Assembly: GCA_963617265.1 (NCBI GenBank)
Contig: CAVEOB010000002.1
Location: forward strand, 5,215 to 69,214
Source: Mediterraneibacter gnavus
GTDB taxonomy: Bacteria > Pseudomonadota > Alphaproteobacteria > RF32 > CAG-239
DNA length: 64,000 bases
Direction: 5' to 3'
The notes under the pieces: generated by a model
Told to the model about the DNA's origin: nothing
The model's input: only the letters and a program-made list of their open reading frames with translations
Databases searched by the model: none
Program-made: the position numbers and the translations under genes
In this document: piece by piece, positions 1-15,194 of the stretch
Layout of the letters: every line of letters begins with the position of its first letter
Numbering within the stretch: position 1 is the stretch's first letter

Positions 1-369
1 ATCGGCGGAGCTGCTGCGTCTGCCGCAACTTCTATCGGCAAAGGTGCAGCCAAAATCGGCGGCAAAGTTGTTTCTTCGGCTGCCGGATATGCTGCGGACA
101 AAACCGGTATTACAAATTTAGCCAACAAAGCCGGCAATGCCATTTCCGGAGCAGCGCTAGCTGCAGCTTCTAAAGGCGGCAAAGCCATTGGTTTAGGTCG
201 ATTCCAGCCGAAAGCACAGCGCGGTATGCCGCCACAACAGACTAAGTCTGACGGCAAAGATACAACTCCTAAGCCAACGCCAGCTTCGCCGTCCGACAAA
301 GACGCAGAAACTCCAAAGGTAGAAAATACCGAACAGCCGGAAGAAAATAAGGATAAACCGATTTCTTAA
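1..369 (+). CDS. 3' fragment of a putative VirB6/TrbL-like membrane protein (start lies upstream of the window)
   Basis: Frame 1 is open from base 1 to TAA at 367-369. It is absent from the ORF track because no start codon lies in the window. The tail IGKGAAKIGGKVVSSAAGY...KGGKAIGLGRF, followed by a Pro/Thr/Glu/Lys-rich end, resembles the Gly/Ala/Lys-rich tails after the membrane cores of the downstream VirB6-like ORFs. Confidence 0.4.
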   Translation: MGGAAASAATSIGKGAAKIGGKVVSSAAGYAADKTGITNLANKAGNAISGAALAAASKGGKAIGLGRFQPKAQRGMPPQQTKSDGKDTTPKPTPASPSDKDAETPKVENTEQPEENKDKPIS

Positions 370-478
370 TTGGCGGAACAGCGGGTAAAAATGCAAATCT
401 TAATCATATTGTAACACATTTTGCATAAAAATTATGATATAGTGGTAAAGTAAGGTATAACGGAAAAGGACTATAAAT

Positions 479-1861
479 ATGAAAGCACCAAAGCTGCATA
501 ATATCTTAAAGGTATTGTTTATTGCCTTTTCCCTGCTGTTTTTGCTGACAGCCTGCAGCACCGAAGAAGGCGGAAACGGTGTTGGACAGGAAGATCAACG
601 CAAAGCGGCAGAAATGCAGAGCACTTGCTGGCAAACCGGCTTTCTGAAACTTTTTTACAAAAATATCGGCACTCAAACCCTGAATGTTTACAGCAACCTG
701 ACTAAAGAAAATCTGCTCAATATTGTTTTGCTGGGTTTCACTATTTGGATGGCGTATCAAATTCTGCGCCACATCAGCACGCCTACTCCCGAATCTTTGG
801 GCGAATTTTGGACCAAGATTGTCCGCAAAGCCTTTTTATGTGCGTTTTGCGGTATTTTAGCCTCTTCTACCGAGCAAATTTACTACGTGATAAATAACTT
901 TATATTTCCTATATACATCACCATTTTAGAGTTTACGTCCGAAATTATGCAAAGGCTGGCAAAAGACCCCGATGCACAAGTAAAGTTCGTTGCTTTGACA
1001 TCAACATTCAGCGATGATAAAGCAGAAGGAATTATGTGCGAAGATTACGGCAACGCCAACTGGGGACAAAGCGGCTGCAAGTTCAACCCTAAAAGCATGA
1101 CGGACTTTTCGGCAAAATCTTTTCCGGAAGAACCGCTTAATATGCTGAGCTGCATGGCATGCGCCGTCAGCGCTAGACTTTCTATCGGCTATGACATTGC
1201 CATACGCTTAATGAAGATTGTCAGCCTGACCAGTTTTATCTGCGGCTGTTTCTTAATTGTTTGGTTCACCATTGCCAAGCTCTGTTTTGTGCTCTATTTA
1301 GCCGACAGTATTTTCCGTTTGAATATGATAATGATTATTTTGCCGTTCCTGATAATGGCATATCCGTTTGAACAAATCCGCAAATGGAGCGTGACCGGTT
1401 TCAAAATAATTCTCAATTCTTCGGCTATTATGTTTTGTTTGGGCATCATTGTTTCCATGACCATTCTCGCCATGCAGAAATTATTGACGCAGGACGGTAT
1501 CGGACTGGCGGAACAAAGCAAATATGAAAATTTCGGCACCACCGCCATGGCGCTTATCTTTATGGGCTTTTTAATTGTCAAGGCAACCGGTATGTCTGTG
1601 GAGCTTTCCAACAAAATCACCGGAGGCGGCGGCAAAGCCGGCATGCAGCGCAAAATTCAGCAGCTAGTTGCTATGGCGGCAAAATGGGGATTTCACATTG
1701 TTTCCGGCGGCGCAGGCAAAATTGCCACTTCCGTCATAGACCATGTGGAATCTTTGCGTAAAGCCCGCGCCAAGGTACAAAAAGCAACAGCAAAAATCAA
1801 AGCTGTTCAGCAAAAAATGGATAAGTTAAGGGGGATAAACCGCAATGAAAAAGATAGTTAG
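479..1861 (+). CDS. VirB6/TrbL-like polytopic membrane lipoprotein (paralogue)
   Basis: 460 aa with a lipobox (LLLTA-C) and many hydrophobic helices. Motif A (LGFTIWMAYQILRHISTPTPESLGEFW) and motif B (ILPFLIMAYPFEQIRKW) are shared with the next ORFs and resemble the VirB6 core as I remember it. The tail is Gly/Lys-rich (GGGGKAGMQRK). The family call is made by eye, not by HMM. Confidence 0.6.
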   Translation: MKAPKLHNILKVLFIAFSLLFLLTACSTEEGGNGVGQEDQRKAAEMQSTCWQTGFLKLFYKNIGTQTLNVYSNLTKENLLNIVLLGFTIWMAYQILRHISTPTPESLGEFWTKIVRKAFLCAFCGILASSTEQIYYVINNFIFPIYITILEFTSEIMQRLAKDPDAQVKFVALTSTFSDDKAEGIMCEDYGNANWGQSGCKFNPKSMTDFSAKSFPEEPLNMLSCMACAVSARLSIGYDIAIRLMKIVSLTSFICGCFLIVWFTIAKLCFVLYLADSIFRLNMIMIILPFLIMAYPFEQIRKWSVTGFKIILNSSAIMFCLGIIVSMTILAMQKLLTQDGIGLAEQSKYENFGTTAMALIFMGFLIVKATGMSVELSNKITGGGGKAGMQRKIQQLVAMAAKWGFHIVSGGAGKIATSVIDHVESLRKARAKVQKATAKIKAVQQKMDKLRGINRNEKDS

Positions 1862-2387
1862 TCTCTCTAAAAGTTTTTTATATTTGCTTATTTTTACGCT
1901 GTGCTTCAGCTTTGCCGGCGCAAGTTTAAGCTATGCCGATGATGTAGAAAAAACTGCCGACAATAAAGAAGTTGCGGGAACTTGCACCAAAGCAGCCATG
2001 GATTCGATGTATAATGCCAAAGATGCGCAAAACTGCTGGTATTGCCGCATTGTTACTTTGATGACCGATGCTTTTTTGCAGGCAGCAGAAAGTTCAATTC
2101 CCACCACGCAGAGTTTAGGCAAGATCATTCTCAAATGGGGCTTTTTAATTTGGCTGGGAATTTTTCTTTTGCAGCAACTTAGTTCCATGGGCGGAATAAC
2201 CCCCGGAAAAATGCTGCAAGAAATTTTTATGATGGGATTTAAGTGTGCGTTTGCCTATTACGCGCTGGAAATGGGCACAGATTTTATCACCAACTACATT
2301 TTGAACCCGATTGTTTCAACCGGTACCGGAATTGGCAAATCAATTTTAACGGAAATGTTGGCGCAAAACGGAGCGGTAAGTGGTTAA
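1845..2387 (+). CDS. N-terminal half of a VirB6/TrbL-like core (possible gene fission product)
   Basis: 180 aa with a signal peptide (..LSYA-DD). It contains only motif A (WGFLIWLGIFLLQQLSSMGGITPGKML), preceded by a CWYC motif as in 4776-8024 (CTTC). It overlaps the upstream ORF by 17 nt and ends 14 nt before the next start. Confidence 0.55.
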   Translation: MKKIVSLSKSFLYLLIFTLCFSFAGASLSYADDVEKTADNKEVAGTCTKAAMDSMYNAKDAQNCWYCRIVTLMTDAFLQAAESSIPTTQSLGKIILKWGFLIWLGIFLLQQLSSMGGITPGKMLQEIFMMGFKCAFAYYALEMGTDFITNYILNPIVSTGTGIGKSILTEMLAQNGAVSG

Positions 2388-2400
2388 AAAGGCGGTTATC

Positions 2401-4755
2401 ATGAAAAAGTTTAAGAAATACATACTTATAACCATCGCAAGTTTGCTGCTTTGCACAAGCACTGCTTTTACTTTGTCCTATGAAGAAGCGTATTTAACCG
2501 CCACCTTGTTCGGCGAAGCTGGCGGCGAAGGTGTCACCGGCATGCAAACCGTTGCCAGCGTGATTATGAACCGCCGCAACTATTATCAGGCTCACGCTAA
2601 AGGCGGACAAACGGTAAAACTATCTGACGTCTGCTTGGCAAGATACCAATTTTCATTTTGGAATGATAAAAGAAACTGGACTGTTCAAAACATAGAAAGC
2701 TGGGCAAGCAAACTAAACAGCGCTAATGCTCGGGCTTGGAACAAATGCTTGGAAATAGCGCGGCAAGCCATTGCCGGAAGCCTGAAAGATGTTACCAACG
2801 GCGCCACTTTTTATTATGCAACCTGGATGGATAAAAAAGGTAAAGCTCCGGCTTGGGCAAGAGGCAGAAACTATAAAGTTGTCGGAAACCATAAAATTGT
2901 CTACGGTGTTGGTTTAAGCGCGCTTAAAACCTGGCATAGCGGCACTTCCCTTGCTGGCGGCGGAGGCGGCAGCAGCTGGAACGGCACTCTTAGCGGAGGC
3001 GGAACTGGCGGCTCCAGCAACTATGATTTAGCCAACGATCCGGAAAATGAGTATGTTTTACCGCCTGAGTGCAAAGGCGCTGCGGAGAAAAACGGGCAAA
3101 TTGTCAACAATGAAATAATGAAACACCGCCTGTTTGCCGAAGATATTTTAATAGACCTAAAAGATATGATGGCGCTGATTTATCAGTCTCTTAGCGTGCT
3201 GTTTGCCCGCGGACACGCTTTGATGTGCTTTTCAACCAAAGTTTCGTTTATCTGTTTGGACGGCGGGGCTGGTCTTTCCGCCGCAATCAAATCATTAGTC
3301 AGCTGCACGGTAGTTGTACCGCTGCTTAACTACTTTATTTCCGGTCTCTTAATTTACCTCACCGGCTTCTTTATGTGCATGTCAATTGGTATGTATTTTA
3401 TAGACATTTCTTTCAAGCTTGGTTTTGCTACTTTGCTTTTACCGCTGTCTATTTCGCTTTGGCCGTTTCCGCCAACCCAAAGCAAATTGTCCGAAAACAT
3501 TGCTATTGTCATCTATAATGCTATGCTGTTTGCCTTTGTTTCAATCGGTACTGCCTATGCGGTAAAATTAGTTGACGCCAGCCTTGGCATGGTAAAAGAT
3601 GCTGAATTTTGGATGATTATGGGTGCGGCAGATAATGGTTTAGGCGACGGTTTGGCAAACACCTTCGCAACTTGGCAAACTCTTAACTCTAAAGACTATG
3701 CGGACAGCATGGAAAAATTCAGTGAATCCTACGATTTAAGCTCGGTTAACATTCTAATCATTCTGTTCGCGTTGATTTTTGGTTTCAAAATCTTATCGTC
3801 CAGCATTCAAAATTATCTTTCAACTTTCTTTGGCGACGGCGCGCTTGGCTCTGCCGACACCGCTATGCACCACCTCGGCACTCAAGCCGTCGGCAAAATA
3901 AAGCAAAGCATTGTAAATCCTACTGCGCGTGTTGCTAGAGATATTGCCTTAAATCAAGGCGGTAAAGGCATAGAAAAACTGGGAAACAAATTGGCTAACA
4001 AAAAATTTGGCGGTGCTGCTGCTCCTGCGCAAGGCGGAACCAATCCGCAACCTTCGCCTTCCGGCGGAGCGAACCCGTCTCCGGCAAGCAATGCCGACGA
4101 CGCTGCCGATAATAACGATACACCTGATAACACTAACGATACGCCGGATACCCCTATAAATAACGATTCGGATAACAGCGGTCAGCCGACAGCTGATAGC
4201 AGCGAAACTCCGCAAACAACAGATAGTGGCTCTCCGCAAACTACAGACAACGGAGCAACCAGCTCTGAAAATTCCAACACCAGAGGAGCACAGTCTGAAA
4301 ATACTCAATCTGCAGAATTACCGCAAACCAAATGGCAGCAATTCAAAAACTACTCCCGCCCTACCGGTCACAGCTTGACAATCGGCAACGCGTTTAAGGC
4401 TGTACACCACCCGCAGCAAGCCTACAGAACCCTTAAACAGCTGGCGCGGCAAGGCTCTCAAGATTGGAAAAATGCGGAAACTCTAAAGGATAAAGGTTCG
4501 CTGGTTTTGAAAAAGAGCGGTCAAGTGGTTATCCGCAGTATCCGCGGCAATGCTAACGAGGCTGCCAACGCCGGAATGGGCATAGCCGGAGGTTTTCTGC
4601 AAAGCCTTGGCAAGAGCATGCAAAAGAAACCACAGCACTACTATAGAGAACGCCAAAAACAGAAAAACAACCGCAGCTCTGACGACAGCGAATATCAACG
4701 CCAGCTAGATGCAGAATATCAAAGCGAGCAAGAAAGAAACAACAGTTCTAACTAA
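2401..4755 (+). CDS. SleB/CwlJ-type cell-wall hydrolase fused to the C-terminal half of a VirB6/TrbL-like core
   Basis: The ORF track starts at GTG 2380. I prefer ATG 2401 (MKKFKKYILITIASLLL signal peptide; AAGGCGG 6 nt upstream). The Hydrolase_2-like block (about nt 2479-2910) reads ATLFGEAGGEG..VASVIMNRRN..YQFSFWND..GATFYYATW. It is followed by a Gly-rich linker, then TM helices with motif B (LLLPLSISLWPFPPTQSK), then a Pro/Thr/Asp/Asn low-complexity tail. Confidence 0.65.
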   Translation: MKKFKKYILITIASLLLCTSTAFTLSYEEAYLTATLFGEAGGEGVTGMQTVASVIMNRRNYYQAHAKGGQTVKLSDVCLARYQFSFWNDKRNWTVQNIESWASKLNSANARAWNKCLEIARQAIAGSLKDVTNGATFYYATWMDKKGKAPAWARGRNYKVVGNHKIVYGVGLSALKTWHSGTSLAGGGGGSSWNGTLSGGGTGGSSNYDLANDPENEYVLPPECKGAAEKNGQIVNNEIMKHRLFAEDILIDLKDMMALIYQSLSVLFARGHALMCFSTKVSFICLDGGAGLSAAIKSLVSCTVVVPLLNYFISGLLIYLTGFFMCMSIGMYFIDISFKLGFATLLLPLSISLWPFPPTQSKLSENIAIVIYNAMLFAFVSIGTAYAVKLVDASLGMVKDAEFWMIMGAADNGLGDGLANTFATWQTLNSKDYADSMEKFSESYDLSSVNILIILFALIFGFKILSSSIQNYLSTFFGDGALGSADTAMHHLGTQAVGKIKQSIVNPTARVARDIALNQGGKGIEKLGNKLANKKFGGAAAPAQGGTNPQPSPSGGANPSPASNADDAADNNDTPDNTNDTPDTPINNDSDNSGQPTADSSETPQTTDSGSPQTTDNGATSSENSNTRGAQSENTQSAELPQTKWQQFKNYSRPTGHSLTIGNAFKAVHHPQQAYRTLKQLARQGSQDWKNAETLKDKGSLVLKKSGQVVIRSIRGNANEAANAGMGIAGGFLQSLGKSMQKKPQHYYRERQKQKNNRSSDDSEYQRQLDAEYQSEQERNNSSN

Positions 4756-4775
4756 TGGCAGAAAAAGAGGAATAA

Positions 4776-7700
4776 ATGAGAAAGCGGCAAACATTTTTAC
4801 AAAAACTTTCAACAAAACTGCTGATACTTTGTTTAAGTGCAGGCTGCTTTGCTTTGTCTGCTGCTCCGGCTTTTTCCAGCTGCAACGGCGTTACTCCTAA
4901 ATGCAGCGCCGCCACCAACAGTGAATCGCAGGGCGGCTGCTCGCCAAACAAAACTTCAAGCGGTTCCTTAGTCGGCAGCGCTTCTCAACAAGTTAAAGCA
5001 AAATGTGTTGCCGACAAAACCAGCGGCGGGTGTTTTAACTCCGTTCCGGTCAGCAGTGTTGGCTCATACAACCGCGAAGGCGCCCGCTCCTCCACTCGAA
5101 ACCACTACGGCAGCGATTTGGGCACTGGCAAAAAAACTAACGTGCTTGCCTATGCTGCAGCTGACGGCGTTGTTATGGGCTGTTCCATATCCACTGGCGG
5201 CGGACGTACCACCGTTATCCGCCACACCAAACACTGTGACGGCGCCAGCAAAAACGGACAATATTATTCCACCATTTACCGCCATTTATTCAAACAAACA
5301 AAATGTAGCGGCGAAGTAAAAAAAGACCAAGCGATTGGTATTGTCGGCGGTTCTAACGCTTCCAGCCGCTCCGGTCCGGTCTGCGATAACCCTCTTCAAG
5401 CTAAAAATTGTTCTCATTACTATGCAATCCACCTGCACTTTGAAGTTGTTAACAGCGCTATGTCTGCAAGTTCAACTTATGTGGGCGGCAGTCAAACCAT
5501 GCAAGCGTCTTGCGGTAACCTGCAAGCCCTTTGCGGCGGCTGTCCTACCAGCACAAAGTCTTGTTTGGGCGGCATGCAAAGCTTCAGTGACGGCAATTCG
5601 GCTTCCGGCAGCGAGGTTGACGATGCCAGTATGCCTGTTGGAGCAGGCGCTCCGAACGGTGAAGAATTTGTTGACGGCAGCGGCGAGTCTTCTTGCATAC
5701 TTTCCGATTATTTGGATAAGCAAACCTGCACCACCTGCGGTATTTTCAAAACCATTTTCAACGCCGCCAGCAACCTTGCGCAAACTGCTATCAGCAAATT
5801 AGCGGTTCCCAGCAAGAATCTTGTGCTTATCGGCTTTTTAATTTGGCTTGCCATTTATGTTTTGAAACAAATTTCCTCTTTCCAAGGCGCCTCCCCTGGG
5901 GATTTGCTGAAAGGCATATTCCTGCAGGGCGCCCGCGTCGCCATTGTTGTATATATTTTATCCGGCGCGCTTTATCAGGTAATGGACATAACTTTAACCC
6001 CTGTAATGCAAACTGGCTTAACCTTTGCCAACATGCTCAACCCTAACTCCAACTGCGACAGTTCCGCCGACTATATGGGTGGTATCGTCGGCTATGACAC
6101 CGACAAGGGCATGCAGGAAACTTCTCAAGGCGGCTTGCCTCGCAACCTTGGACAATCCATTATCTGCACCATCAAAAATTTGGAAGACAGCGTCGGCGTT
6201 CTCTTGGCACTCGGCAACTATTCCACCTGCTACGCTTTTCATGACAAGGCTTTATGGGACGGCGTTATCCCGCACCTAGGCTACTTCTTGTCCGGCATGG
6301 GATTATGGCTGGTCGGCGTCTTTTTGCTCTTTGCCTTTCCATGGTGCCTGATAGACTGCATTTTGCAGCTGTGCATTGCCGCGGCGATGATTCCATGTTC
6401 TATAGCCGCTTTTGCCTTTAAATCAACGGCTAAATACCTTGGCATTATCTGGAACTTCTTTATGAACGCCATGTTCAACCTGATATTCTTAGCCGTATTG
6501 ATGTTTATTTTAACCTCTATGTTCAAAGAATGGATAGGTCTGACCGATGAATCGCTTTCCACTTTTGACCCCGTATTGCTAATCACCGCCAAAGCAAACG
6601 GGCTTGCGTGGTGGGGTGTCGGATTTTTCAAAATCTTTGCCTTTGTCTTCTTGTTTGTATGCTTTATTGATGAAGTTCCGTCTATGGCAAGCAAATTTGC
6701 AACCGGAGCCGACTTTGGTCGCCAAGGCATCGGGCGTATGGTCGGTGGTGCGGTCGCTTCAGCCGCTAAGCCGATAGCCAAAGGCGCTGGTCACATGGCT
6801 AAAAGAGGCGCGCAATCTGTTGGTGAAGCCACAAACTCGCTTGCCGGCAACTGGGTTCGCAGCAAAAAGAACCAGCTGAAAGGCATGGCTTTAGTTGCTC
6901 TCGGCGGACGCAAACTCCGCGACGCCGATGGCAATGTGGTCGGCTATCAGGCTCGTTTCAAAGGTATCCCAGGGTTTACGCAAACCCGCACCGTTACCAA
7001 AGACGCTAACGGCGTGTGGACGCAAACCAAAGAAACGCATCAAAAAACTGTTGCCGATAAAGCCTTTAAGCCAATGACCGACGCTAACGGCGAAACTACA
7101 TTTGCTGTCAGAACCAGCGGCAAAAGCGCGTTTGCCCAATATGAGCAAATGACCAAATCCGTTCAGGAAGACGGCACCGTTAAATATACCTCAAAAGACG
7201 GCAGCAGCGTTTTAGTTACCGACCCAAACGGTAATATACTTAAATATAAGCGCGCTAAAGATACGGATATGGTAACTGAAAGCCACAAAGGCAGCGTGCA
7301 AACCACCAATGACGCCTTCATGAGCAAGCGCACCATGGTTGACGCCAATGGCAAAGTAATCGGCAGCGATGTGCAGTTCAAAAACGTAAGCTCAAAATAC
7401 TTAATTAACAAAGACGGTTCAACCAATATGCACGCCTATAATCAAATTATGAACGGCGTCAGCGCCGAAAATAAAACCGACGCTATGGCGGCAATGACGG
7501 CAATGCACATAAAAGCGCGCGGTCAAAACCTCGACAGCCGTTTCAAAGACCGTAAAGTTACAATGAATAAGGACGGCAGCGTTACTATTCATCAAGTCAA
7601 CAATGACGGCAGCAAGCAAGAAATACGCGCCTCTAGGGTCAACGGTCAAATGATTATAGAAAACAAAACCACTAGCAGCAACGGCAGCATCACCCTGCAA

Positions 7701-8024
7701 AAGAGCAACGGCATGCAAAACAAAACCACATCTTTTGCTAAACAGGCTGATGGAACTTTTATTAAAACCGTAAAATACAGCTTTACCGATGAAGTCCACA
7801 GCCGCAGCCGAATTTCTCAGCCTTTAGATGAAAACGGCGCTTGGGGCTATGGTGTGGACGCGCAAAAAGCCATGGCAGGCTTTAACTCTCAAGAGTTCCA
7901 AGAACACCTTGACCAGCTGCAAGATGAAAAACTGAAGAATGGTTTGCGCAAGACCGTACTTACGGCTGAAGAACTGAAAGATATGTTAGCAGGTAAAGAT
8001 GTTAAAGGCATAGCTTCTAAATAG
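4776..8024 (+). CDS. M23/LytM peptidase domain fused to a complete VirB6/TrbL-like core with a long C-terminal extension
   Basis: 1082 aa with an AGAGGA RBS and a signal peptide. The M23 motifs HYGSDLG (HxxxD) and HLHFEV (HxH) lie at about nt 5100-5450. Motif A is IGFLIWLAIYVLKQISSFQGASPGDLL and motif B is AAMIPCSIAAFAFKSTAKY, followed by several TM helices. The last 380 aa or so are hydrophilic with recurring D-x-(N/D)-G-x turns. Confidence 0.7.
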   Translation: MRKRQTFLQKLSTKLLILCLSAGCFALSAAPAFSSCNGVTPKCSAATNSESQGGCSPNKTSSGSLVGSASQQVKAKCVADKTSGGCFNSVPVSSVGSYNREGARSSTRNHYGSDLGTGKKTNVLAYAAADGVVMGCSISTGGGRTTVIRHTKHCDGASKNGQYYSTIYRHLFKQTKCSGEVKKDQAIGIVGGSNASSRSGPVCDNPLQAKNCSHYYAIHLHFEVVNSAMSASSTYVGGSQTMQASCGNLQALCGGCPTSTKSCLGGMQSFSDGNSASGSEVDDASMPVGAGAPNGEEFVDGSGESSCILSDYLDKQTCTTCGIFKTIFNAASNLAQTAISKLAVPSKNLVLIGFLIWLAIYVLKQISSFQGASPGDLLKGIFLQGARVAIVVYILSGALYQVMDITLTPVMQTGLTFANMLNPNSNCDSSADYMGGIVGYDTDKGMQETSQGGLPRNLGQSIICTIKNLEDSVGVLLALGNYSTCYAFHDKALWDGVIPHLGYFLSGMGLWLVGVFLLFAFPWCLIDCILQLCIAAAMIPCSIAAFAFKSTAKYLGIIWNFFMNAMFNLIFLAVLMFILTSMFKEWIGLTDESLSTFDPVLLITAKANGLAWWGVGFFKIFAFVFLFVCFIDEVPSMASKFATGADFGRQGIGRMVGGAVASAAKPIAKGAGHMAKRGAQSVGEATNSLAGNWVRSKKNQLKGMALVALGGRKLRDADGNVVGYQARFKGIPGFTQTRTVTKDANGVWTQTKETHQKTVADKAFKPMTDANGETTFAVRTSGKSAFAQYEQMTKSVQEDGTVKYTSKDGSSVLVTDPNGNILKYKRAKDTDMVTESHKGSVQTTNDAFMSKRTMVDANGKVIGSDVQFKNVSSKYLINKDGSTNMHAYNQIMNGVSAENKTDAMAAMTAMHIKARGQNLDSRFKDRKVTMNKDGSVTIHQVNNDGSKQEIRASRVNGQMIIENKTTSSNGSITLQKSNGMQNKTTSFAKQADGTFIKTVKYSFTDEVHSRSRISQPLDENGAWGYGVDAQKAMAGFNSQEFQEHLDQLQDEKLKNGLRKTVLTAEELKDMLAGKDVKGIASK

Positions 8025-8206: not shown

Positions 8207-9196
8207 ATGGAGAAAGATGATATGGAAGAAATTATTTTCCCTAATCAAATCAGAATGCACAGAAGATTGCGCGGTATGTCTATGCAGGAATTGGCTGATC
8301 ATTTGGGAGTCAGCTTGTCGGCGATTTCTAAAATTGAAAAAGGTTACCGCCGTCTCAATCAAGAACAGCTGATTCAGGTTGCCGAACTTATTGACTGTTC
8401 GCTGCAAGATTTATACGTTAATGAGCAAAATTCGCAGCAAGATGTTGTCCAAGCTTGGAAACGCGAACAGGAAAGACGCTGCAAAATCAACCAAAATGCC
8501 GGTTTGAAAACTTTGGGCGCAGGTTTGCGCCACATTCGCACCGACAAAGGCTTGACTTTAATTGAAGTTGCCGAAAGCGCCGATATGACTCTGTCGGTTT
8601 ATCACCGTATAGAAATGGGACAAAGAGAAGTTTCTGACAAAGAATATCAAAATATCGCCAAAGCTTTTTCTATGCCTCTCGACAAATTGAAAGCCGAAAT
8701 CAAAAAGCTGGAAAATGAAGGCGTTTTAGAAGATATTATCGAACACAATGAAACACGCTATAAACTTTTGAACAACTCTAGATATTCTAATGTTGCTGCG
8801 CAAACCGCCAATGACGATGAAACGGCTATGCTGCCTGTTTTTGGCACCAGCAACGCCGAAGGCAATATTGTCATTGACCGCGCCAACGCCGTAAAAGAAG
8901 TTGCTTGTCCGGTGCAGCTGCAAAACAAACCGGAAGCTTATGCCGTAAATTTGTGCACCCGCCGTTTGGGTTCGCTTTTGCCAAGCCGCGCTATTTTGTT
9001 TATAGATAAAACAGAAGTTGTCAGCGCTGGCGACATTGCCTTATATTACATCAGCGAAACCGAAGCTATGCTAATCAGCGTCCGCGAAGATGAAAACGGT
9101 CAGCTTTACGGCTTGCGTTGGAATCCTGATGAACGAACAAATTTCAGCAACAGCGATTTAACAAAAATTCATAAGGTTGTGGCTATCAACTTATAA
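8207..9196 (+). CDS. XRE-family regulator with two HTH domains and a degenerate S24/LexA-like C-terminal domain
   Basis: 329 aa. HTH 1 is IRMHRRLRGMSMQELADHLGVSLSAISKIEKG and HTH 2 is LRHIRTDKGLTLIEVAESADMTLSVYHRIEMG. The C-terminus (LPVFGTSNAEGN...GDIALYY...KIHKVVAINL) aligns by eye with the LexA/CI S24 domain, but the GDSM-type Ser position reads CTRRL. An alternative start at ATG 8222 lies 9 nt after GGAG. Confidence 0.7.
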   Translation: MEKDDMEEIIFPNQIRMHRRLRGMSMQELADHLGVSLSAISKIEKGYRRLNQEQLIQVAELIDCSLQDLYVNEQNSQQDVVQAWKREQERRCKINQNAGLKTLGAGLRHIRTDKGLTLIEVAESADMTLSVYHRIEMGQREVSDKEYQNIAKAFSMPLDKLKAEIKKLENEGVLEDIIEHNETRYKLLNNSRYSNVAAQTANDDETAMLPVFGTSNAEGNIVIDRANAVKEVACPVQLQNKPEAYAVNLCTRRLGSLLPSRAILFIDKTEVVSAGDIALYYISETEAMLISVREDENGQLYGLRWNPDERTNFSNSDLTKIHKVVAINL

Positions 9197-9284: not shown

Positions 9285-10103
9285 GTGTCAGACGTAATAA
9301 GAGAAAATGATGTTGCCAGCGAAAAAGATGAAGAATATCCGATTCTTGATGCTCAGCGCTATCTAAATATTTTTCATCAAATTCACATTTTCAACGCCGA
9401 AAAAAGAGCTGAATTTGACCAATCCCTTTTGCAGATGAATGACAAAATTAAAAAGCTGCTGGTCAATATGCCGGGCGGAAAAGTTCTGCTGGAACATATA
9501 AAAGAACTTGAAGATGATGAAGAAGTTTCGGACGAAACGCTTAATCTGATTACTAAAAACATTGAAGAAGAAAAAAAATCAGCAGAAACGCATCACAAAA
9601 AACACAACATAAACGTAACCGTCGGCGAGCTGGCTATTGGCAATGAATTTGCTGAAAAGTTGGCAAACTCTTTGGTTGACGCACTCAAAAGCGCAAATCT
9701 GGCAACAAATTCCGACCTGACGCATACCATCAGCACAATTCCGCTTTTTGGTTCAACCTCGGCTGACGGCAGCCTGCTTATCAGCAAATCCACAATCCTT
9801 AGATTGGTATCCTGCCCCATTGCCTTGCAAAACAAACATTCGGTTTATGCCGTTAAACTTAACACTAATTGCGTTGGGCTGGATTTATCTGACAAAGCCA
9901 TACTTTATATTGACAAATCCGAGCTTATCGGCTCGGGTGATTTAGCGCTCTATTTTTTCAACAGAGCTGAAGCCAAACTGGTCCGGCTCTATACGGACGA
10001 ACGCGGACAATTATATGGTTTGCGCAGCAATCCCGAAGAAAAAATACTGTTTACTATCAGCAATATTGCAAAAATCCACAAAGTAGTGCTTATTGGACTA
10101 TAA
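9285..10103 (+). CDS. Hypothetical protein: unknown N-terminal domain plus S24/LexA-like domain, with no HTH
   Basis: 272 aa with a GTG start. The C-terminal ~120 aa (IPLFGSTSADGS...GDLALYF...KIHKVVLIGL) are a paralogue of the C-terminus of 8207-9196. The N-terminal ~135 aa (PILDAQRYLNIFHQIHIFNAEKRAEFDQSLL..PGGKVLLEHIKE..NIEEEKKS..FAEKLANSL) are a paralogue of the N-terminus of 10202-11296. Confidence 0.65.
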   Translation: MSDVIRENDVASEKDEEYPILDAQRYLNIFHQIHIFNAEKRAEFDQSLLQMNDKIKKLLVNMPGGKVLLEHIKELEDDEEVSDETLNLITKNIEEEKKSAETHHKKHNINVTVGELAIGNEFAEKLANSLVDALKSANLATNSDLTHTISTIPLFGSTSADGSLLISKSTILRLVSCPIALQNKHSVYAVKLNTNCVGLDLSDKAILYIDKSELIGSGDLALYFFNRAEAKLVRLYTDERGQLYGLRSNPEEKILFTISNIAKIHKVVLIGL

Positions 10104-10201: not shown

Positions 10202-11296
10202 GTGGCAGAAGACTTAATTGATGATGATGTAGAATATTCCAGCAATCAGGAAGAGGAAGACCCGATTCTGGTTGCCCAGCGTTATTTAAATATTTTCCAC
10301 CAAATTCATATTTTCAATCAGGCAAAAAAAGATGAATTTGACGAGTCTCTGCTTAATATCTCGGAAAAAACCAAAGAATTGCTGGCAACACTGCCGGGCG
10401 GACGCGTTTTTTTGGAACACGTTAAAGAAGTCGAAGAAAAACAAGGTAAAAATTCCGGCGGCACCAGTGAACTAATCGCTCAAAACATCGAAGAAGAAAA
10501 AAAATCAATCGACAGCCTGAAACAACACTCCGGAAACGGCGGCGAACTTACTTTAGGTGCTGATTTTGCCGAAAGTTTAGCAAATTCTTTGGCGGCGGCG
10601 CTGCAAAGCAGCAATGCTGCGTCTAATAACAATATGACCGACTTGGCTATTTTGCTGAACAAATCGTTCAATGCCTATGCTGCCAGTATGCAAACTTTAA
10701 CCAACCGTCTTGCCGGTCAGGTTAATACCACAGCAGCGACACAGCAGCAAACCTTTTCTGCGGCGCCGGTGCAGCCTGCAGGAATGACAGCCCAGCAGCA
10801 AAACAATTCTTCGACCACTGTTAACAACATCAATATGGATACTTCCTACTTTAGTAGCATAAATCAAACGCTTATGCAAAATGATGCCCGCCGCCATGAA
10901 GATATGATGCAAATTATCGCTGCTTTGAATAAAAATATTCTGAACGGCATCTCCCCGTCAGAAAACAGCGATGGACTTGCCGCGGCATTAAATTACGGAA
11001 TACCAGCAACGGCTCTTGCCGAAGCATTGCGTCAAAACAACTCGCAGCAGCTTGAAGCCATAAAATCTTTCGGTAAAATGCTTGTGCAGGCAATCACCCA
11101 ATCACAGCAGGAATTAGCGCAGACCTTGACGCAGTCCGCACCGCGCTCTACCGTAAAAGTCGTGGTTTCGCAAGACGTTGATGTAGAAGACCAAACCGGC
11201 GGCAGTGCAGTTGTTTCTAAACAAAATACTTCTAATGCTCAGCAGCCGAAAAAGAATGAAAATAACAACGCAAAAAAAACTGAACCGATAAGTTAA
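10202..11296 (+). CDS. Hypothetical protein: the same unknown N-terminal domain plus a Gln/Asn/Ala-rich C-terminal region
   Basis: 364 aa with a GTG start 8 nt after GGAGTGAGG. The N-terminus (PILVAQRYLNIFHQIHIFNQAKKDEFDESLL..PGGRVFLEHVKE..NIEEEKKS..FAESLANSL) is paralogous to 9285-10103. There is no TM segment or signal peptide. Confidence 0.6.
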   Translation: MAEDLIDDDVEYSSNQEEEDPILVAQRYLNIFHQIHIFNQAKKDEFDESLLNISEKTKELLATLPGGRVFLEHVKEVEEKQGKNSGGTSELIAQNIEEEKKSIDSLKQHSGNGGELTLGADFAESLANSLAAALQSSNAASNNNMTDLAILLNKSFNAYAASMQTLTNRLAGQVNTTAATQQQTFSAAPVQPAGMTAQQQNNSSTTVNNINMDTSYFSSINQTLMQNDARRHEDMMQIIAALNKNILNGISPSENSDGLAAALNYGIPATALAEALRQNNSQQLEAIKSFGKMLVQAITQSQQELAQTLTQSAPRSTVKVVVSQDVDVEDQTGGSAVVSKQNTSNAQQPKKNENNNAKKTEPIS

Positions 11297-12723: not shown

Positions 12724-13230
12724 ATGGCAGAAGAAAATCTCGCACCAATTACCAAGGAATCTCTCTGGTATGTGGACAACTACATTGTTCTGATAGATTA
12801 TTACGACCGCACGATTTCCCGCATTGCGGCGCGTTGTATCCGCAGCGGCAATATTGCGCTTGAAGAATATAAATTTTATCCTTATGTGCTTGATGTTTTA
12901 GAAGAAATTTGTGAAACCGGCAACTATATTCTAGAACATAAAGAACTCTATCCATATATAGAAAAGAAAATCGCCGGCGGTGTTGAAGCTCTGCGTAAAA
13001 ATCTCTCTATTTATCAAGAAGAGCTGACCAGCAACCAATCGCCGGAAATGCTGCGCTCCGACCCTAACGAAGTGCAAAAAATGAATGAAGTTATGAGTAA
13101 TTTTGATAAATCGGTTGATCCAACCTCTGGTGCCGGTATGAATATAGATGATTTAATGAACAAACTTATGGCAGAAAACAACATCAGCCAACATTCTGAT
13201 AACACCGATGACGATAATCAGCAGCAATAG
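12724..13230 (+). CDS. Hypothetical acidic protein
   Basis: 168 aa with a GAGAGGA RBS. The C-terminus is acidic (DNTDDDNQQQ), there is no TM segment, and I recognise no motif. Confidence 0.5.
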   Translation: MAEENLAPITKESLWYVDNYIVLIDYYDRTISRIAARCIRSGNIALEEYKFYPYVLDVLEEICETGNYILEHKELYPYIEKKIAGGVEALRKNLSIYQEELTSNQSPEMLRSDPNEVQKMNEVMSNFDKSVDPTSGAGMNIDDLMNKLMAENNISQHSDNTDDDNQQQ

Positions 13231-13242
13231 GAACACCATAAA

Positions 13243-14580
13243 ATGAAAAAACACTTTAACACTTTCAGTTTAGTTTTAGGATTGTCCGCGCTTTTATCCG
13301 GACTTTCAGCCTGCATTGCCCGCGATGATATTGATTTTGGCGAAGACAACACCGCTGCCATAAGCGCGCAAGTTCCAGCAGAAACCGTAAATCAGCCAAC
13401 TTCAGATATAAACATTATGAAGTTTTCCAAAGAAGAGATTGTGTTTAAAGACCCTGAAGAACCGGCGATTGTACGTACTCCGGAAGGAGCCAATGCTTTG
13501 GATTTGGAAACTCCGCTGCGCTGCAATGTGAACTGGAAAACCCAGCAGATGGTGCTGACTTTGCCATATATAAACTCCGCTTTCAAACTTGAGCGAAACG
13601 GTCGCAACGACCCGCTGCCGCGCTTTGAAGTAACCGGCTACACTTTTGATATGATGCCGGCAGAGCAAGCATTGGTAAAACTCACCAAAGAAGCAGGCAT
13701 ACGCGTTTCTTCTGCCGATGGTCCATATACCAGCATTTCTGCCGAAGATTTAAAAGGCGAATTTTCGGAAGTGGTTAAAATGATTGCCGATTCGGCGGAC
13801 ATTTACACCACCTACAACGCCAAAGATAAAATTTTAACTTTAAGCCGCCGCATTAATATGACGCTATATACGCCGCCGTCTCGCCCAATTATTTTAGGCT
13901 TGCTTGACGTTATCCGCGGTGCCGGAATAACCAATATTGTAACCAACTGGGCGGATTATTCCATTACATTTGACGCCGACATTGAAACCCGCAACAAAAT
14001 TCAGGAGCTGATAAAATCATTTGAAAACAGCCCTACCCTGATAGCTTATGACGTCAGCGTATTCCGTCTTTACCCGTATATTCAGCAAGATATTGAATGG
14101 AAAGATTTGCTGAACGCCTTTGACTTTGGCTCCATCACCACAGCGCAAACCGGCGTTATTGGTCGCGTATTAACCACCACAAACGACATTTCAATAGAAA
14201 AACTGCAGCAGTTCTTAGGCAACCAAGCTCAAATTGAAATAGTTTCCGAAGGTAAATTTATTGTGCCAAACTTATGGCTTTCGCGCTTTGATATAGGCAA
14301 ATGCAGCAAACCGGAAAGCAACGCTTACGGTATGTCGGTTTTGGCTAAAGCTTCAGTCGAAAAGAAAAATGAAATCTTTTCGGATATTACCTTAGAAGAA
14401 ACCGAAGGTCAGGTTACGCAATTTAAAATCCGCAGCAAGCTTGGCGAGAACTTCTTAATTATTGGCTTGCCAAATGAACTATTCGGCATTCAAAGCCCTA
14501 AGTCTGAAACCATCATCTTTATGGTTCCGCGCCTTGTCCGCACGCTAAAAACTAACGAAACCTTGAAAAACAGAATTTAA
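13243..14580 (+). CDS. Outer-membrane lipoprotein with a secretin-like C-terminal domain (tentative)
   Basis: 445 aa with a lipobox (LSGLSA-C). The C-terminus reads IEIVSEGKFIVPNLWLSRFDIG ... GMSVLAKASVEKKNEIFSDITLEE ... FKIRSKLGENFLIIGLPNE ... SETIIFMVPRLV. By eye this follows the secretin-domain pattern (..GG.i......lvifitPrii). The lipoprotein form recalls the type IVb pilus secretins (BfpB/TcpC/PilN). No HMM confirmation. Confidence 0.4.
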   Translation: MKKHFNTFSLVLGLSALLSGLSACIARDDIDFGEDNTAAISAQVPAETVNQPTSDINIMKFSKEEIVFKDPEEPAIVRTPEGANALDLETPLRCNVNWKTQQMVLTLPYINSAFKLERNGRNDPLPRFEVTGYTFDMMPAEQALVKLTKEAGIRVSSADGPYTSISAEDLKGEFSEVVKMIADSADIYTTYNAKDKILTLSRRINMTLYTPPSRPIILGLLDVIRGAGITNIVTNWADYSITFDADIETRNKIQELIKSFENSPTLIAYDVSVFRLYPYIQQDIEWKDLLNAFDFGSITTAQTGVIGRVLTTTNDISIEKLQQFLGNQAQIEIVSEGKFIVPNLWLSRFDIGKCSKPESNAYGMSVLAKASVEKKNEIFSDITLEETEGQVTQFKIRSKLGENFLIIGLPNELFGIQSPKSETIIFMVPRLVRTLKTNETLKNRI

Positions 14581-14591
14581 CGGAGAGAAAA

Positions 14592-15194
14592 ATGGAAGAA
14601 AATCAGTTTAAAAATGCGCCTCGAAAAATCAGAAAAATCAAACGTCCGCGCGCACCTGAAAATCAGCCGGCAACCTATGGAGTTCCCGAAAAAATTTCTG
14701 TACCGCAAAATAGCCTGCAAAGCGAAACCGCCGAAAATTATTACGATGACAACGGCGATGCCGAGAATATTCATTTTATCACAGATGAAGAGTTAATGCC
14801 GCAAGAGCCGGAAACCGTAACATATTTTTTGAAAAACAAAACTGTCCTGCTAATGCTGGTATTGGCAGCGCTTTTCGGTGTTGTTTTAGGCTCTACACTG
14901 TTTTCCACCCAAGAAACGGCTAAAAAAGGTCTTGACGGCGTTGTCGTAAACTCTGATGTGCCGGTAGGACGCAGCCGCTGCGGCTTAGTTGAGCCTCACC
15001 AAGGCTGCGTGCTCTATATTATGAACCCGCGCAACCAAGAAGTAACCGGCAAAGACTTTTTTGCAACTGCTGCACAATGGACGCGCCGTGAACGCTACTT
15101 GATAGAAACCGGAAATATGCACTACAGCAGCAAGCGGATTCGCCCAGGGTATATTGCCCAAATCAACATTCCGCCTCTTTCTAACAATAACTAA
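14592..15194 (+). CDS. Bitopic membrane protein, function unknown
   Basis: 200 aa with a GGAGAG RBS. It has a basic/acidic N-terminal region, a single TM helix (VLLMLVLAALFGVVLGSTLF) and a C-terminal domain of about 100 aa. It is the last gene before a strong terminator. Confidence 0.5.
   Translation: MEENQFKNAPRKIRKIKRPRAPENQPATYGVPEKISVPQNSLQSETAENYYDDNGDAENIHFITDEELMPQEPETVTYFLKNKTVLLMLVLAALFGVVLGSTLFSTQETAKKGLDGVVVNSDVPVGRSRCGLVEPHQGCVLYIMNPRNQEVTGKDFFATAAQWTRRERYLIETGNMHYSSKRIRPGYIAQINIPPLSNNN

What the first reader, a model, noticed from the sequence alone, without database searches (positions are those of the whole stretch)
1..8024. Operon of tandem VirB6/TrbL-like channel proteins, two with built-in peptidoglycan hydrolase domains
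Seen: five consecutive + strand ORFs (1-369 partial, 479-1861, 1845-2387, 2401-4755, 4776-8024) are separated by overlaps or gaps of 20 nt or less. They repeat two motif blocks. Block A reads LGFTIWMAYQILRHISTPTPESLGEFW / WGFLIWLGIFLLQQLSSMGGITPGKML / IGFLIWLAIYVLKQISSFQGASPGDLL. Block B reads IMIILPFLIMAYPFEQIRKW / ATLLLPLSISLWPFPPTQSK / AAAMIPCSIAAFAFKSTAKY. Each block B is followed by further TM helices and a Gly/Ala/Lys-rich tail. 2401-4755 opens with a signal peptide plus a SleB/CwlJ-type (Hydrolase_2) block. 4776-8024 opens with a signal peptide plus an M23/LytM block (HYGSD ... HLHFEV). Established: a Trp-containing helix followed by a short periplasmic turn, and later a Pro-containing helix followed by F..R...W, is how I remember the TrbL/VirB6 inner-membrane core of type IV secretion systems. 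Tandem virB6 paralogues with long extensions are typical of Rickettsiales rvh/virB loci. The wall-cutting enzyme of canonical T4SSs (VirB1) is a separate lytic transglycosylase. Inference: covalent VirB6-hydrolase fusions, one glycan-cleaving type and one endopeptidase type, would couple channel insertion to local murein remodelling. I do not know this architecture from described systems.
Basis: partly seen in the sequence, partly recalled or inferred. Interest (0 to 1): 0.75.

Follow-up and report, generated by a model that had tools for sequence, protein, structure and literature searches.

The report
VirB6 paralog array with fused wall-cutters
A conserved chromosomal operon in uncultured gut and rumen Alphaproteobacteria encodes four to five very divergent copies of the type IV secretion protein VirB6, and two of the copies carry their own cell-wall-cutting enzyme domains; I found no published description of that combination, and it may show how such machines get through the wall without a separate VirB1 enzyme.

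Summary
**Observation.** Confirmed.

**Family.** The membrane cores belong to a divergent TrbL/VirB6 family.
- The full-length protein behind ORF1 passes Pfam's TrbL threshold.
- 40 of 44 ORF2 orthologs hit TrbL.
- AlphaFold models of ORF2 and ORF5 both have R388 TrwI/VirB6 as their best PDB match.

**Hydrolase domains.**
- ORF4 carries a true Hydrolase_2 domain and ORF5 a true M23 domain.
- Their catalytic residues are conserved across species.
- Both domains follow signal peptides and lie in Cys-rich regions, so they are predicted to be periplasmic.

**New points.**
- ORF3 and ORF4 are the two halves of one paralog. It is unsplit in 13 deep lineages and split in 65.
- Three hydrolase types (M23, Hydrolase_2, VgrG3-like) occur at at least four positions on these cores. 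All the positions map to periplasmic parts of VirB6.
- The block is conserved in more than 100 species-level MAGs and is under purifying selection.
- It travels with an HTH regulator, a small hairpin protein and an unknown lipoprotein.

**Closest known system.** The Rickettsiales rvhB6a-e array.

**Main gap.** No virB4, virB8-11 or virD4 lies within about 10 kb in roughly 85 loci, and whole genomes could not be searched.

**Verdict.** New variant of a known kind, of moderately high interest.

The parts
1..369 (+). C-terminal Gly/Ala/Lys-rich tail of VirB6-like paralog 'b'. The full-length protein is 653 aa and is seen on the identical contig L001 at 1766-3727.
   Evidence: Full-length protein hits Pfam TrbL at 31.5 bits (cut-off 25.9), E 1.9e-7, residues 246-471.
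479..1861 (+). VirB6-like paralog 'c' (ORF2, 460 aa). It is core only and has a lipoprotein-type signal (LTAC; C26 is conserved in at least 90% of orthologs).
   Evidence: 40/44 orthologs hit Pfam TrbL, best E 1.4e-8. AF2 model pLDDT 76.8; top PDB fold hits are TrwI/VirB6 8rt9_F, 8rtd_L and 7o3v_J, probability 1.0, TM (normalised to target) 0.56-0.59. dN/dS of the core 0.07-0.09.
1845..2387 (+). N-terminal half of split VirB6-like paralog 'd' (ORF3, 180 aa): signal peptide, Cys-containing segment and the block A helices.
   Evidence: hhalign to ORF2 family columns 55-172: 95.8%, E 7e-9. The same paralog is a single gene in 13 deep-branching loci.
2401..4755 (+). C-terminal half of split paralog 'd' (ORF4, 784 aa): its own signal peptide, a Hydrolase_2 domain, a Gly-rich linker, the block B core half and a long hydrophilic tail.
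   Evidence: hhalign to ORF2 family 210-330: 91.7%, E 8e-7. The hydrolase-less ortholog in L005 hits Pfam TrbL at 27.3 bits on profile positions 95-184.
2524..2892 (+). SleB/CwlJ-type Hydrolase_2 domain of ORF4 (aa 42-164).
   Evidence: Pfam PF07486, 52.1 bits, E 1.1e-13. Candidate catalytic Glu39 conserved in 41/42 loci, N57 40/42, R58 38/42. dN/dS 0.13.
3118..3810 (+). VirB6-like core C-half of ORF4 (aa 240-470), containing block B (LPLSISLWPFPPTQSK).
   Evidence: invariant motif GMYFxDISFKLGFA...P...LWPF.
4776..8024 (+). VirB6-like paralog 'e' (ORF5, 1082 aa): signal peptide, M23 domain, Cys-rich linker, full VirB6-like core, and a beta-rich C-terminal domain.
   Evidence: AF2 model pLDDT 76.8 with four separate structured parts. 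The PDB fold search gives TrwI/VirB6 as top hit (8rt9_F E 8.5e-4; 7o3v_J TM normalised to target 0.69) and M23-like SpoIIQ at probability 1.0.
5058..5480 (+). Peptidase M23 (LytM-type) domain of ORF5 (aa 95-235).
   Evidence: Pfam 26.2 bits in the window and 55-61 bits in orthologs. Family profile vs PDB M23 peptidases E 5e-8. H110/D114/H170/H219/H221 conserved in 55-62 of 62 loci. dN/dS 0.07-0.18.
5718..6704 (+). VirB6-like core of ORF5 (aa 315-643), with blocks A and B.
   Evidence: hhalign to the ORF2 family: 98.1%, E 7e-14. Helical bundle in the model.
6843..7895 (+). Beta-rich C-terminal domain of ORF5 (aa 690-1040). It is Cys-free and K/R-rich, and its function is unknown.
   Evidence: Model strands 712-1003. 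Only weak beta-propeller/lectin-like fold hits. Some orthologs carry RHS_repeat or MORN_2 hits. dN/dS 0.08-0.16.
8207..9196 (+). Double HTH_3 regulator with a conserved C-terminal domain. It is a constant neighbour of the array.
   Evidence: Pfam HTH_3, 86 bits, two stretches. Found next to the array in 70 loci. It stays adjacent, in divergent orientation, in the rearranged locus L091.
12724..13230 (+). Conserved 168-aa protein of the block, with no family assignment.
   Evidence: Syntenic in every locus that reaches that far, 22 in all. No Pfam or NCBIfam hit.
13243..14580 (+). Conserved 445-aa predicted lipoprotein of the block (LSAC lipobox), with no family assignment.
   Evidence: Homolog stays linked to the array in the rearranged L091 (E 1e-141) and in L089. 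No Pfam, NCBIfam or PDB hit.
14592..15194 (+). Conserved 200-aa single-TM protein at the end of the block.
   Evidence: Homologs follow the lipoprotein in L089 and in the rearranged L091 (E 1e-38 to 1e-40).

Best explanation
**What it is.** The region is the 3' part of a conserved chromosomal block of uncultured gut and rumen Alphaproteobacteria. The block encodes an array of four to five very divergent 'extended VirB6' (TrbL/VirB6 family) paralogs, which I label a to e.
- The tail of b is ORF1.
- c is ORF2.
- d is ORF3 plus ORF4. This gene underwent fission within the clade.
- e is ORF5.

**Hydrolase modules.** Paralog e carries an N-terminal M23 endopeptidase. The C-half of paralog d carries an N-terminal SleB/CwlJ-type Hydrolase_2. 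Each follows its own Sec signal peptide.

**How it most likely works (inferred).**
1. The paralogs co-assemble into the inner-membrane and periplasmic 'stalk' part of a type IV secretion-like envelope machine, as VirB6 does in R388.
2. The tethered hydrolases sit on the periplasmic side of that assembly.
3. They cut peptide cross-links (M23) and glycan or muramyl bonds (Hydrolase_2) only where the machine is inserted. This would do in cis the job that the separate lytic transglycosylase VirB1 does in canonical systems.

**Shown:** homology, domain content, conservation, purifying selection and predicted topology. **Inferred:** co-assembly, enzymatic activity, and the link to a complete T4SS.
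For: **VirB6 membership.**
- Pfam TrbL above threshold for paralog b (31.5 bits), for the L005 d C-half (27.3 bits), and for L091 paralogs (36.6 and 32.3 bits).
- 40/44 ORF2 orthologs hit TrbL.
- Two independent AF2 models both have R388 TrwI/VirB6 as their best PDB match, with TM (normalised to target) 0.56-0.69.
- NCBI names some paralogs of these MAGs 'type IV secretion system protein'.

**Hydrolases.**, with catalytic residues conserved in about 90-100% of loci.

**Periplasmic placement.**
- Signal peptides or a lipobox at the N-termini.
- 17 Cys in the ORF5 exported region against 0 in its 451-aa tail, and 5 against 0 in ORF4.
- The insertion points (N-terminus and central loop) are the periplasmic parts of the Agrobacterium VirB6 topology (PMC7648143; PMC4027160).

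**Repeated, independent coupling of hydrolase and core.**
- M23 N-terminal on e in 61 of 72 loci.
- M23 inserted in the central loop of an unsplit d in L091.
- Hydrolase_2 on the d C-half in 24 loci and on the d N-half in 16.
- M23 plus a VgrG3-like domain in L089.

**Selection.** dN/dS is 0.05-0.26 in every domain. The block is present in at least 106 species-level genomes.

**Analog.** Rickettsia and Anaplasma have 4-5 tandem extended VirB6 paralogs with signal peptides or lipoboxes, one of them split in R. bellii.
Against: - No virB3, virB4, virB8-11 or virD4 lies in the 64-kb window.
- None was seen within about 10 kb of the array in the roughly 85 related loci, judging from precomputed Pfam tables for some and from inspection of flanking ORFs for others.
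- No ATPase is visible in the conserved block.
- The window proteins themselves do not reach Pfam TrbL.
- Fold-match E-values are modest (1e-3).
- The number of paralogs varies between four and five, so a simple one-of-each pentamer does not fit all lineages.
- Hydrolase activity is untested.
- 25 split-d loci and 11 e paralogs lack the hydrolase domains, so those domains are not indispensable.
Confidence: 0.55

Rival explanations
1. Stand-alone envelope module. The VirB6-like paralogs, small hairpin protein, lipoprotein and other conserved neighbours form a T4SS-derived apparatus that no longer works with VirB4, VirB11 or VirD4. It would be an envelope scaffold for local wall remodelling, surface display of the C-terminal repeat domains, or cell-cell or host contact.
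For: No T4SS ATPase or outer-membrane core gene lies near the array in any locus examined. The block sits at a core-genome position between housekeeping genes and is conserved across a whole clade. The lipoprotein, the 200-aa protein and the HTH regulator stay linked to the array through a rearrangement. Bartonella Trw is a precedent for a T4SS that has lost its coupling protein and acts in adhesion (my own knowledge, not tested here).
Against: In Rickettsiales, T4SS genes are scattered in several islets, so local absence says little. No VirB6 family member is known to work outside a T4SS (my own knowledge). Whole genomes were not searchable.
Confidence: 0.27
2. Weapon reading. The hydrolase domains are antibacterial or anti-target toxins rather than assembly tools. 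They would be carried at the distal end of the VirB6 stalk, or released by cleavage, to attack the wall of neighbouring bacteria, like the effectors of bacteria-killing T4SSs and the T6SS spike protein VgrG3.
For: M23 and lysozyme-type domains are typical antibacterial effectors. One ortholog (L089) carries a T6SS_VgrG3-like_C domain at 30.5 bits, above the cut-off of 27. Basal Rickettsiales are proposed to use rvh for killing congeners (PMC11077975). The system lacks an evident VirB5, so something else may cap the stalk (inference).
Against: The domains are N-terminal, follow Sec signal peptides, and are covalently tied to a polytopic membrane core, which is unlike known T4SS effectors with C-terminal signals. 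No adjacent immunity-like small gene was seen directly after ORF4 or ORF5. The placement in the central loop in L091 fits a structural role better.
Confidence: 0.12
3. Decaying remnant or annotation artefact. The array would be a degenerating T4SS leftover, and the ORF3/ORF4 split a frameshift or assembly error.
For: ORF3 and ORF4 are halves of one ancestral gene. The window proteins score below Pfam thresholds.
Against: The split is present in 65 independent species-level assemblies, and the C-half has its own start codon and signal peptide. dN/dS is 0.05-0.26 in all parts. Catalytic residues are conserved. Identical sequence was found in independent assemblies.
Confidence: 0.03

Closest known systems
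Rickettsiales rvh T4SS VirB6 arrays (Rickettsia RvhB6a-e; Anaplasma and Ehrlichia VirB6-1 to -4)
   Same: Four to five tandem, highly divergent 'extended VirB6' paralogs of about 450-1400 aa on the chromosome. The TrbL/VirB6 core is flanked by large hydrophilic extensions. N-terminal signal peptides or lipoboxes are present. One paralog is split in some genomes. The host is an alphaproteobacterium.
   Different: In Rickettsiales the array directly follows virB3-virB4, whereas here no T4SS gene is adjacent. No hydrolase domains are reported in RvhB6 proteins, and RvhB1 is a separate lytic transglycosylase. The present clade is gut and rumen MAGs labelled Rhodospirillales-like, not Rickettsiales. 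Orthology to rvhB6 was not tested.
TrwI/VirB6 of plasmid R388 (PDB 7O3V, 8RT9, 8RTD) and Agrobacterium VirB6
   Same: Best structural match of both models. Pfam TrbL/VirB6 family. Conserved Trp-containing N-proximal helix. The periplasmic N-terminus and central loop are the places where the hydrolase domains are attached.
   Different: The canonical proteins are about 300 aa, single-copy, homopentameric, and have no enzymatic domain. Sequence identity is only 9-16%. No sequence-level PDB hit was found.
VirB1-type T4SS wall hydrolases (Gram-negative VirB1 and TrbN lytic transglycosylases; Gram-positive PrgK, TraG of pIP501, CwlT)
   Same: The proposed role is the same: local peptidoglycan opening for a T4SS. 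PrgK also combines a LytM (M23) domain with glycan-cleaving domains and has a membrane anchor (review PMC12857230).
   Different: Those are separate proteins, not fused to VirB6. The Gram-negative ones are SLT-family enzymes, not Hydrolase_2 or M23. Here the enzymes are covalent parts of the VirB6-like subunits.
Other extended VirB6 proteins (F-plasmid TraG, SXT TraG, MPF_FA VirB6 homologs)
   Same: A VirB6-like polytopic core plus a large extra hydrophilic domain. The review states that the role of such domains is mostly unknown.
   Different: Their extra domains are C-terminal and act in mating-pair stabilisation or entry exclusion. No peptidoglycan hydrolase domain is described.

Membership tests
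TrbL/VirB6 (Pfam PF04610) | Significant match to the family HMM (gathering score 25.9 bits) | tested here: met
   Not met by any of the five window proteins alone. Met by the full-length protein of ORF1 (31.5 bits), by orthologs of ORF4 (27.3 bits), and by L091 paralogs (36.6 and 32.3 bits). 40/44 ORF2 orthologs hit at E <= 0.01, best 1.4e-8. ORF2, ORF3, ORF4 and ORF5 are tied to each other by hhalign.
TrbL/VirB6 (Pfam PF04610) | VirB6 fold as in the solved T4SS stalk (TrwI) | tested here: met
   The top PDB hits of both AF2 models are TrwI/VirB6 chains: probability 1.0, TM (normalised to target) 0.56-0.69, E 8.5e-4 to 2e-2. Model confidence is moderate (pLDDT 77).
TrbL/VirB6 (Pfam PF04610) | Polytopic hydrophobic core with a conserved Trp in the N-proximal helix region | tested here: met
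   There are 4-6 hydrophobic segments per full core. Invariant W90/W111 in the ORF2 family, W357 in the ORF5 family and W103 in the ORF3 family.
TrbL/VirB6 (Pfam PF04610) | Encoded together with VirB4 and other T4SS core genes | tested here: not met
   None is in the 64-kb window or within about 10 kb in the related loci inspected. Genome-wide presence is not testable with these tools.
Rickettsiales rvh-type VirB6 array | Multicopy tandem extended VirB6 paralogs | tested here: met
   There are 4-5 paralogs per locus across about 83 loci. Compare PMC2653234.
Rickettsiales rvh-type VirB6 array | Array lies in an islet with virB3-virB4; the genome shows the rvh hallmarks (duplicated VirB4/8/9, no VirB5); the host is Rickettsiales | tested here: not met
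   The upstream genes are an alpha/beta-hydrolase-like gene and unrelated housekeeping genes. The MAGs are labelled Alphaproteobacteria, Rhodospirillaceae or 'Azospirillum'. The genome-wide hallmarks were not testable.
Peptidase M23 (PF01551) | HMM match above the gathering score of 28.7 bits | tested here: inconclusive
   The window ORF5 scores 26.2 bits, just under. Orthologs score 55.7, 57.3 and 61.5 bits. The family profile hits PDB M23 enzymes at E 5e-8.
Peptidase M23 (PF01551) | Zinc-binding and catalytic HxxxD ... H ... HxH residues | tested here: met
   H110, D114, H170, H219 and H221 are present in the window and in 55-62 of 62 loci. Assignment of the roles is by analogy with LytM (my own knowledge).
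Hydrolase_2 (SleB/CwlJ, PF07486) | HMM match above the gathering score of 27 bits | tested here: met
   52.1 bits, E 1.1e-13, ORF4 residues 42-164, covering profile positions 1-97 of 100. 23 of 26 homolog clusters carry PF07486.
Hydrolase_2 (SleB/CwlJ, PF07486) | Conserved catalytic Glu near the start of the domain | tested here: met
   E39 in GEAGGE is conserved in 41/42 loci. That this is the catalytic residue is inferred from my recollection of SleB. No PDB sequence hit was obtained to confirm the register.
VirB1 (SLT-type lytic transglycosylase) | SLT/lysozyme-like transglycosylase domain on a separate periplasmic protein | tested here: not met
   No SLT hit in any protein of the block. 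The claim is functional analogy only, not membership.

The most novel reading that the evidence does not exclude
The block may be a self-contained machine built from a hetero-oligomeric VirB6 stalk with built-in wall-cutting enzymes. It would comprise 4-5 VirB6 paralogs, a hairpin protein, a lipoprotein and their neighbours. It is conserved across the roughly 100 sampled species of gut and rumen Alphaproteobacteria. On this reading it works without the canonical VirB4, VirB11 and VirD4 motors, or it uses its hydrolase-tipped stalk directly against neighbouring cells. That would be a new class of envelope apparatus derived from a T4SS.
Probability: 0.2. Interest if true: 0.85.

Novelty: new variant of a known kind. 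Interest (0 to 1): 0.62.

Why it matters
**An open question in the field.** A recent T4SS review states that the role of the extra domains of 'extended VirB6' proteins is unknown (PMC12857230). Here those extra domains are recognisable enzymes. They give a concrete, testable function: cis-acting peptidoglycan opening at the site where the stalk is built.

**Evidence that the coupling is selected.** Hydrolase domains were acquired repeatedly at periplasmic positions of the core: N-terminus, central loop and fission boundary. This is comparative evidence for which parts of VirB6 face the wall. That is relevant to the current debate between the old polytopic-channel model and the R388 periplasmic-stalk model.

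**Wider reach of the multicopy array.** A multicopy VirB6 array has been treated as a signature of Rickettsiales. Here one occurs in widespread but uncultured gut and rumen Alphaproteobacteria, found in Hadza and Nepali people, ruminants and horses. This hints that these bacteria have a contact-dependent interaction system.

**Annotation.** The fused proteins themselves are labelled only 'hypothetical' or 'M23 peptidase'.

Tried and rejected
**Searches that returned nothing useful.**
- Sequence-only search of PDB with ORF2, the ORF2-family profile, the ORF4 N-terminus and the ORF4-family profile gave no VirB6 or SleB hit. Only fold comparison found VirB6.
- NCBIfam has no model for any protein of the block.
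- tblastn of paralog b against 72,556 plasmids gave no match, so there is no close plasmid TrbL relative.
- Pfam on the N-terminal inserts of the longer ORF3 orthologs in L004 and L005 gave no hit. Their Hydrolase_2 relationship rests on BLASTP (E 4e-6 and 1e-3) and on my own HMM (41-47 bits).
- Rfam at the ends of seven contigs that break just upstream of the block found no rRNA or other RNA. The cause of the recurrent assembly break is unexplained.
- Profile searches of the conserved 445-aa lipoprotein against Pfam and PDB gave nothing. My impression that its C-terminus looked secretin-like is unsupported and is dropped.
- Literature searches for the clade (RF32, CAG-239) together with secretion systems, and for VirB6 together with hydrolase or M23, found no relevant description.

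**Ideas considered and set aside.**
- A strict 'one of each paralog equals a pentamer' model. I kept it only as speculation, because deep lineages have four paralogs, not five.
- A frameshift artefact as the cause of the ORF3/ORF4 split. This is rejected: 65 independent genomes show the split, and the C-half has its own signal peptide.

Full report
**1. The observation**

The five + strand ORFs exist as described: 1-369 (a C-terminal fragment), 479-1861 (460 aa), 1845-2387 (180 aa), 2401-4755 (784 aa from the ATG that matches the orthologs) and 4776-8024 (1082 aa). The junctions are a 17-nt overlap and gaps of 13 and 20 nt. The ORF1-ORF2 gap is 109 nt.

The repetition is far beyond chance:
- ORF2 family vs ORF5 family: 98.1% hhalign probability, E 7e-14, over 321 columns.
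- ORF3 family vs the N-terminal half of the ORF2 core: 95.8%, E 7e-9.
- ORF4 family vs the C-terminal half of the ORF2 core: 91.7%, E 8e-7.

**2. Are the cores VirB6/TrbL?**

None of the five window proteins hits Pfam TrbL on its own, and NCBIfam names none of them. The family link is nevertheless solid.
- An identical public contig (L001) extends the window 3.8 kb upstream. It shows that ORF1 is the tail of a 653-aa protein that passes Pfam's TrbL threshold (31.5 bits against 25.9).
- 40 of 44 ORF2 orthologs hit TrbL, best E 1.4e-8.
- The hydrolase-less ortholog of ORF4 in L005 hits TrbL at 27.3 bits, on profile positions 95-184 only.
- Paralogs in L091 score 36.6 and 32.3 bits.
- AlphaFold2 models of ORF2 and ORF5 (both with mean pLDDT 76.8) each retrieve the TrwI/VirB6 chains of the R388 T4SS stalk as the best PDB match. 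Probability is 1.0 and TM normalised to the target is 0.56-0.69.
- NCBI labels some paralogs from these MAGs 'type IV secretion system protein'.
- An exhaustive profile search finds 1025 representative clusters of this core family at E <= 1e-3.

**3. The hydrolase domains**

*Hydrolase_2 in ORF4.* Residues 42-164 are a clear Hydrolase_2 (SleB/CwlJ) domain at 52.1 bits. The candidate catalytic Glu39 is conserved in 41 of 42 loci.

*M23 in ORF5.* Residues of about 95-235 are an M23 domain.
- The window copy scores 26.2 bits, just under Pfam's cut-off.
- Orthologs score 55-61 bits.
- The family profile matches solved M23 peptidases (2gu1, ShyA, LytM, lysostaphin) at E down to 5e-8.
- The model matches SpoIIQ.
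- The HxxxD...H...HxH residues are conserved in 55-62 of 62 loci.

*Selection.* Both domains, the cores and the tails are under purifying selection, with dN/dS 0.05-0.26.

*Topology.*
- Each hydrolase follows an N-terminal signal sequence.
- ORF2 has a lipobox.
- The exported regions are Cys-rich: 17 Cys in ORF5 residues 34-337 and 5 in ORF4 residues 27-287.
- The K/R-rich C-terminal tails have no Cys at all.
- This fits a periplasmic N-terminus and a cytoplasmic C-terminus, as in the topology reported for Agrobacterium VirB6 (quoted in PMC7648143).

**4.

ORF3 carries only block A and ORF4 only block B. I surveyed about 83 non-redundant related loci with HMMs built from my own alignments.
- This paralog, 'd', is a single gene with both halves in 13 deep-branching lineages.
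- It is split into two genes in 65.

ORF3 plus ORF4 is therefore a conserved gene fission. The hydrolase sits at the fission point, which corresponds to the large central periplasmic loop of VirB6.

The position of the hydrolase varies between lineages.

| Hydrolase arrangement | Where seen |
|---|---|
| Hydrolase_2 on the C-half of d | 24 loci, including the window |
| Hydrolase_2-like domain on the N-half of d | 16 loci |
| No Hydrolase_2 on a split d | 25 loci |
| M23 at the N-terminus of paralog e | 61 of 72 scorable loci |
| Strong M23 domain (57 bits) inserted between the two core halves of an unsplit d | L091 |
| M23 plus a T6SS VgrG3-like C domain ahead of the core of e | L089 |

In total there are three hydrolase types at at least four attachment points. 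All the points map to periplasmic parts of the core. This argues that the coupling is selected, not accidental.

**5. Context**

The window is chromosomal. The rest of it holds ATP synthase, LeuRS, a PBP, MraW, Lnt, MiaB, PhoH, FolD and a single tRNA. It holds no other T4SS gene.

*The conserved block.* In order, it runs:
1. an alpha/beta-hydrolase-like 285-aa gene;
2. paralog a;
3. a 66-102-aa two-helix hairpin protein (found in 75 loci, and fused to paralog b in L068);
4. paralogs b, c, d and e;
5. a double-HTH regulator;
6. repeat proteins;
7. a 168-aa protein;
8. a 445-aa lipoprotein;
9. a 200-aa membrane protein.

In the rearranged locus L091, the lipoprotein, the 200-aa protein and the regulator remain next to the array. 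That supports a functional link between them.

*Flanks.* The genes outside the block differ between lineages and are housekeeping genes. No virB3, virB4, virB8-11 or virD4 was seen within about 10 kb in any locus.

*Distribution.* The block occurs in at least 106 species-level MAGs. All are uncultured gut or rumen Alphaproteobacteria, from human Hadza and Nepal samples, ruminants and a horse, and they include 'Azospirillum sp. 51_20'. Whole genomes could not be searched here. Whether a complete T4SS exists elsewhere in these genomes remains the main open question.

**6. Comparison with what is known**

The closest system is the Rickettsiales rvh T4SS.
- Rickettsia has five tandem, very divergent extended VirB6 paralogs of 668-1154 aa, and virB6d is split in one strain.
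- Anaplasma has four, with signal peptides or lipoboxes.
- There the array follows virB3-virB4, and the wall enzyme (RvhB1) is a separate lytic transglycosylase.
- A multicopy VirB6 array is treated as an rvh hallmark.

A recent review states that the function of the extra domains of extended VirB6 proteins is unknown. It lists VirB1-like hydrolases only as separate proteins.

I found no paper describing a VirB6-hydrolase fusion. Public annotation calls the fused proteins 'hypothetical' or 'M23 peptidase'.

**7. Mechanism and verdict**

The most likely reading (about 0.55) has three parts.
1. The paralogs co-assemble into the VirB6 stalk and inner-membrane part of a T4SS-like machine.
2. The tethered M23 and Hydrolase_2 domains open the peptidoglycan locally.
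3. In this they replace a free VirB1.

Rival readings:
- A stand-alone T4SS-derived envelope module without the canonical ATPases (about 0.27).
- Hydrolase domains used as contact-dependent weapons (about 0.12).
- Decay or artefact (about 0.03), which is contradicted by the conservation and selection data.

The finding is a new variant of a known kind. The T4SS context is still to be shown.

Noticed in passing
window 11338-12654 (+): A 438-aa protein made largely of two tandem repeat arrays. One has 11.6 copies of a 39-nt unit (PKPAPKPEPVKEQ). The other has 4.9 copies of a 51-nt unit (DGDWEYVDENGNPVSGD, with weak MORN_2 and SSSPR-51-like hits). It lies in the conserved block downstream of the array.
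   Followed up: partly
window 8207-9196, 9285-10103 and 10202-11296 (+): The double-HTH_3 regulator has a C-terminal domain of about 140 aa with no Pfam hit. That domain is duplicated in the next gene (42% identity, E 7e-41). The second and third genes share an N-terminal motif (PIL.AQRYLNIFHQIHIFN). Together they look like a small regulator family tied to the array.
   Followed up: partly
window 13243-14580 (+); L091 1-1221; L089 12263-13555: A highly conserved 445-aa predicted lipoprotein (60% mean column identity across distant lineages) has no Pfam, NCBIfam or PDB match. It stays next to the VirB6 array even in a rearranged locus.
   Followed up: partly
L010-L088 (contig ends): In most of about 80 independent MAG assemblies the contig ends a few hundred to 2000 bases upstream of the first gene of the block. 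No rRNA or other Rfam family was found at seven such ends. The cause of the recurrent assembly break is unexplained.
   Followed up: partly
L068 1529-3133: The small two-helix hairpin protein that normally precedes paralog b as a separate, overlapping gene is fused in frame to the N-terminus of paralog b here, giving a 534-aa protein.
   Followed up: no
L089 4069-7971: An ortholog of ORF5 carries two wall-hydrolase-type domains ahead of the VirB6 core: M23 (61.5 bits) and T6SS_VgrG3-like_C (30.5 bits, cut-off 27).
   Followed up: no
window 17834-18610 (-): A single 257-aa ORF combines an ATP synthase B/B' domain (residues 7-118) with an OSCP/delta domain (residues 144-246). It appears to be a fused b-delta stator subunit in the ATP synthase operon.
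   Followed up: no
window 34574-36049 (+); L005 1-1619 (-): There are eukaryote-like signalling and interaction domains in these genomes. The window has a 491-aa protein with a Pkinase (Ser/Thr kinase) domain. In L005 a 952-aa ankyrin-repeat protein lies about 3 kb upstream of the array. Both are possible hints of host or protist interaction.
   Followed up: no
L002 408-1274; L008 394-1242; 67 loci in all: A conserved gene of about 285 aa heads the block. It has a weak alpha/beta-hydrolase match (20 bits, an HG motif), but the usual GxSxG nucleophile motif is not obvious.
   Followed up: no
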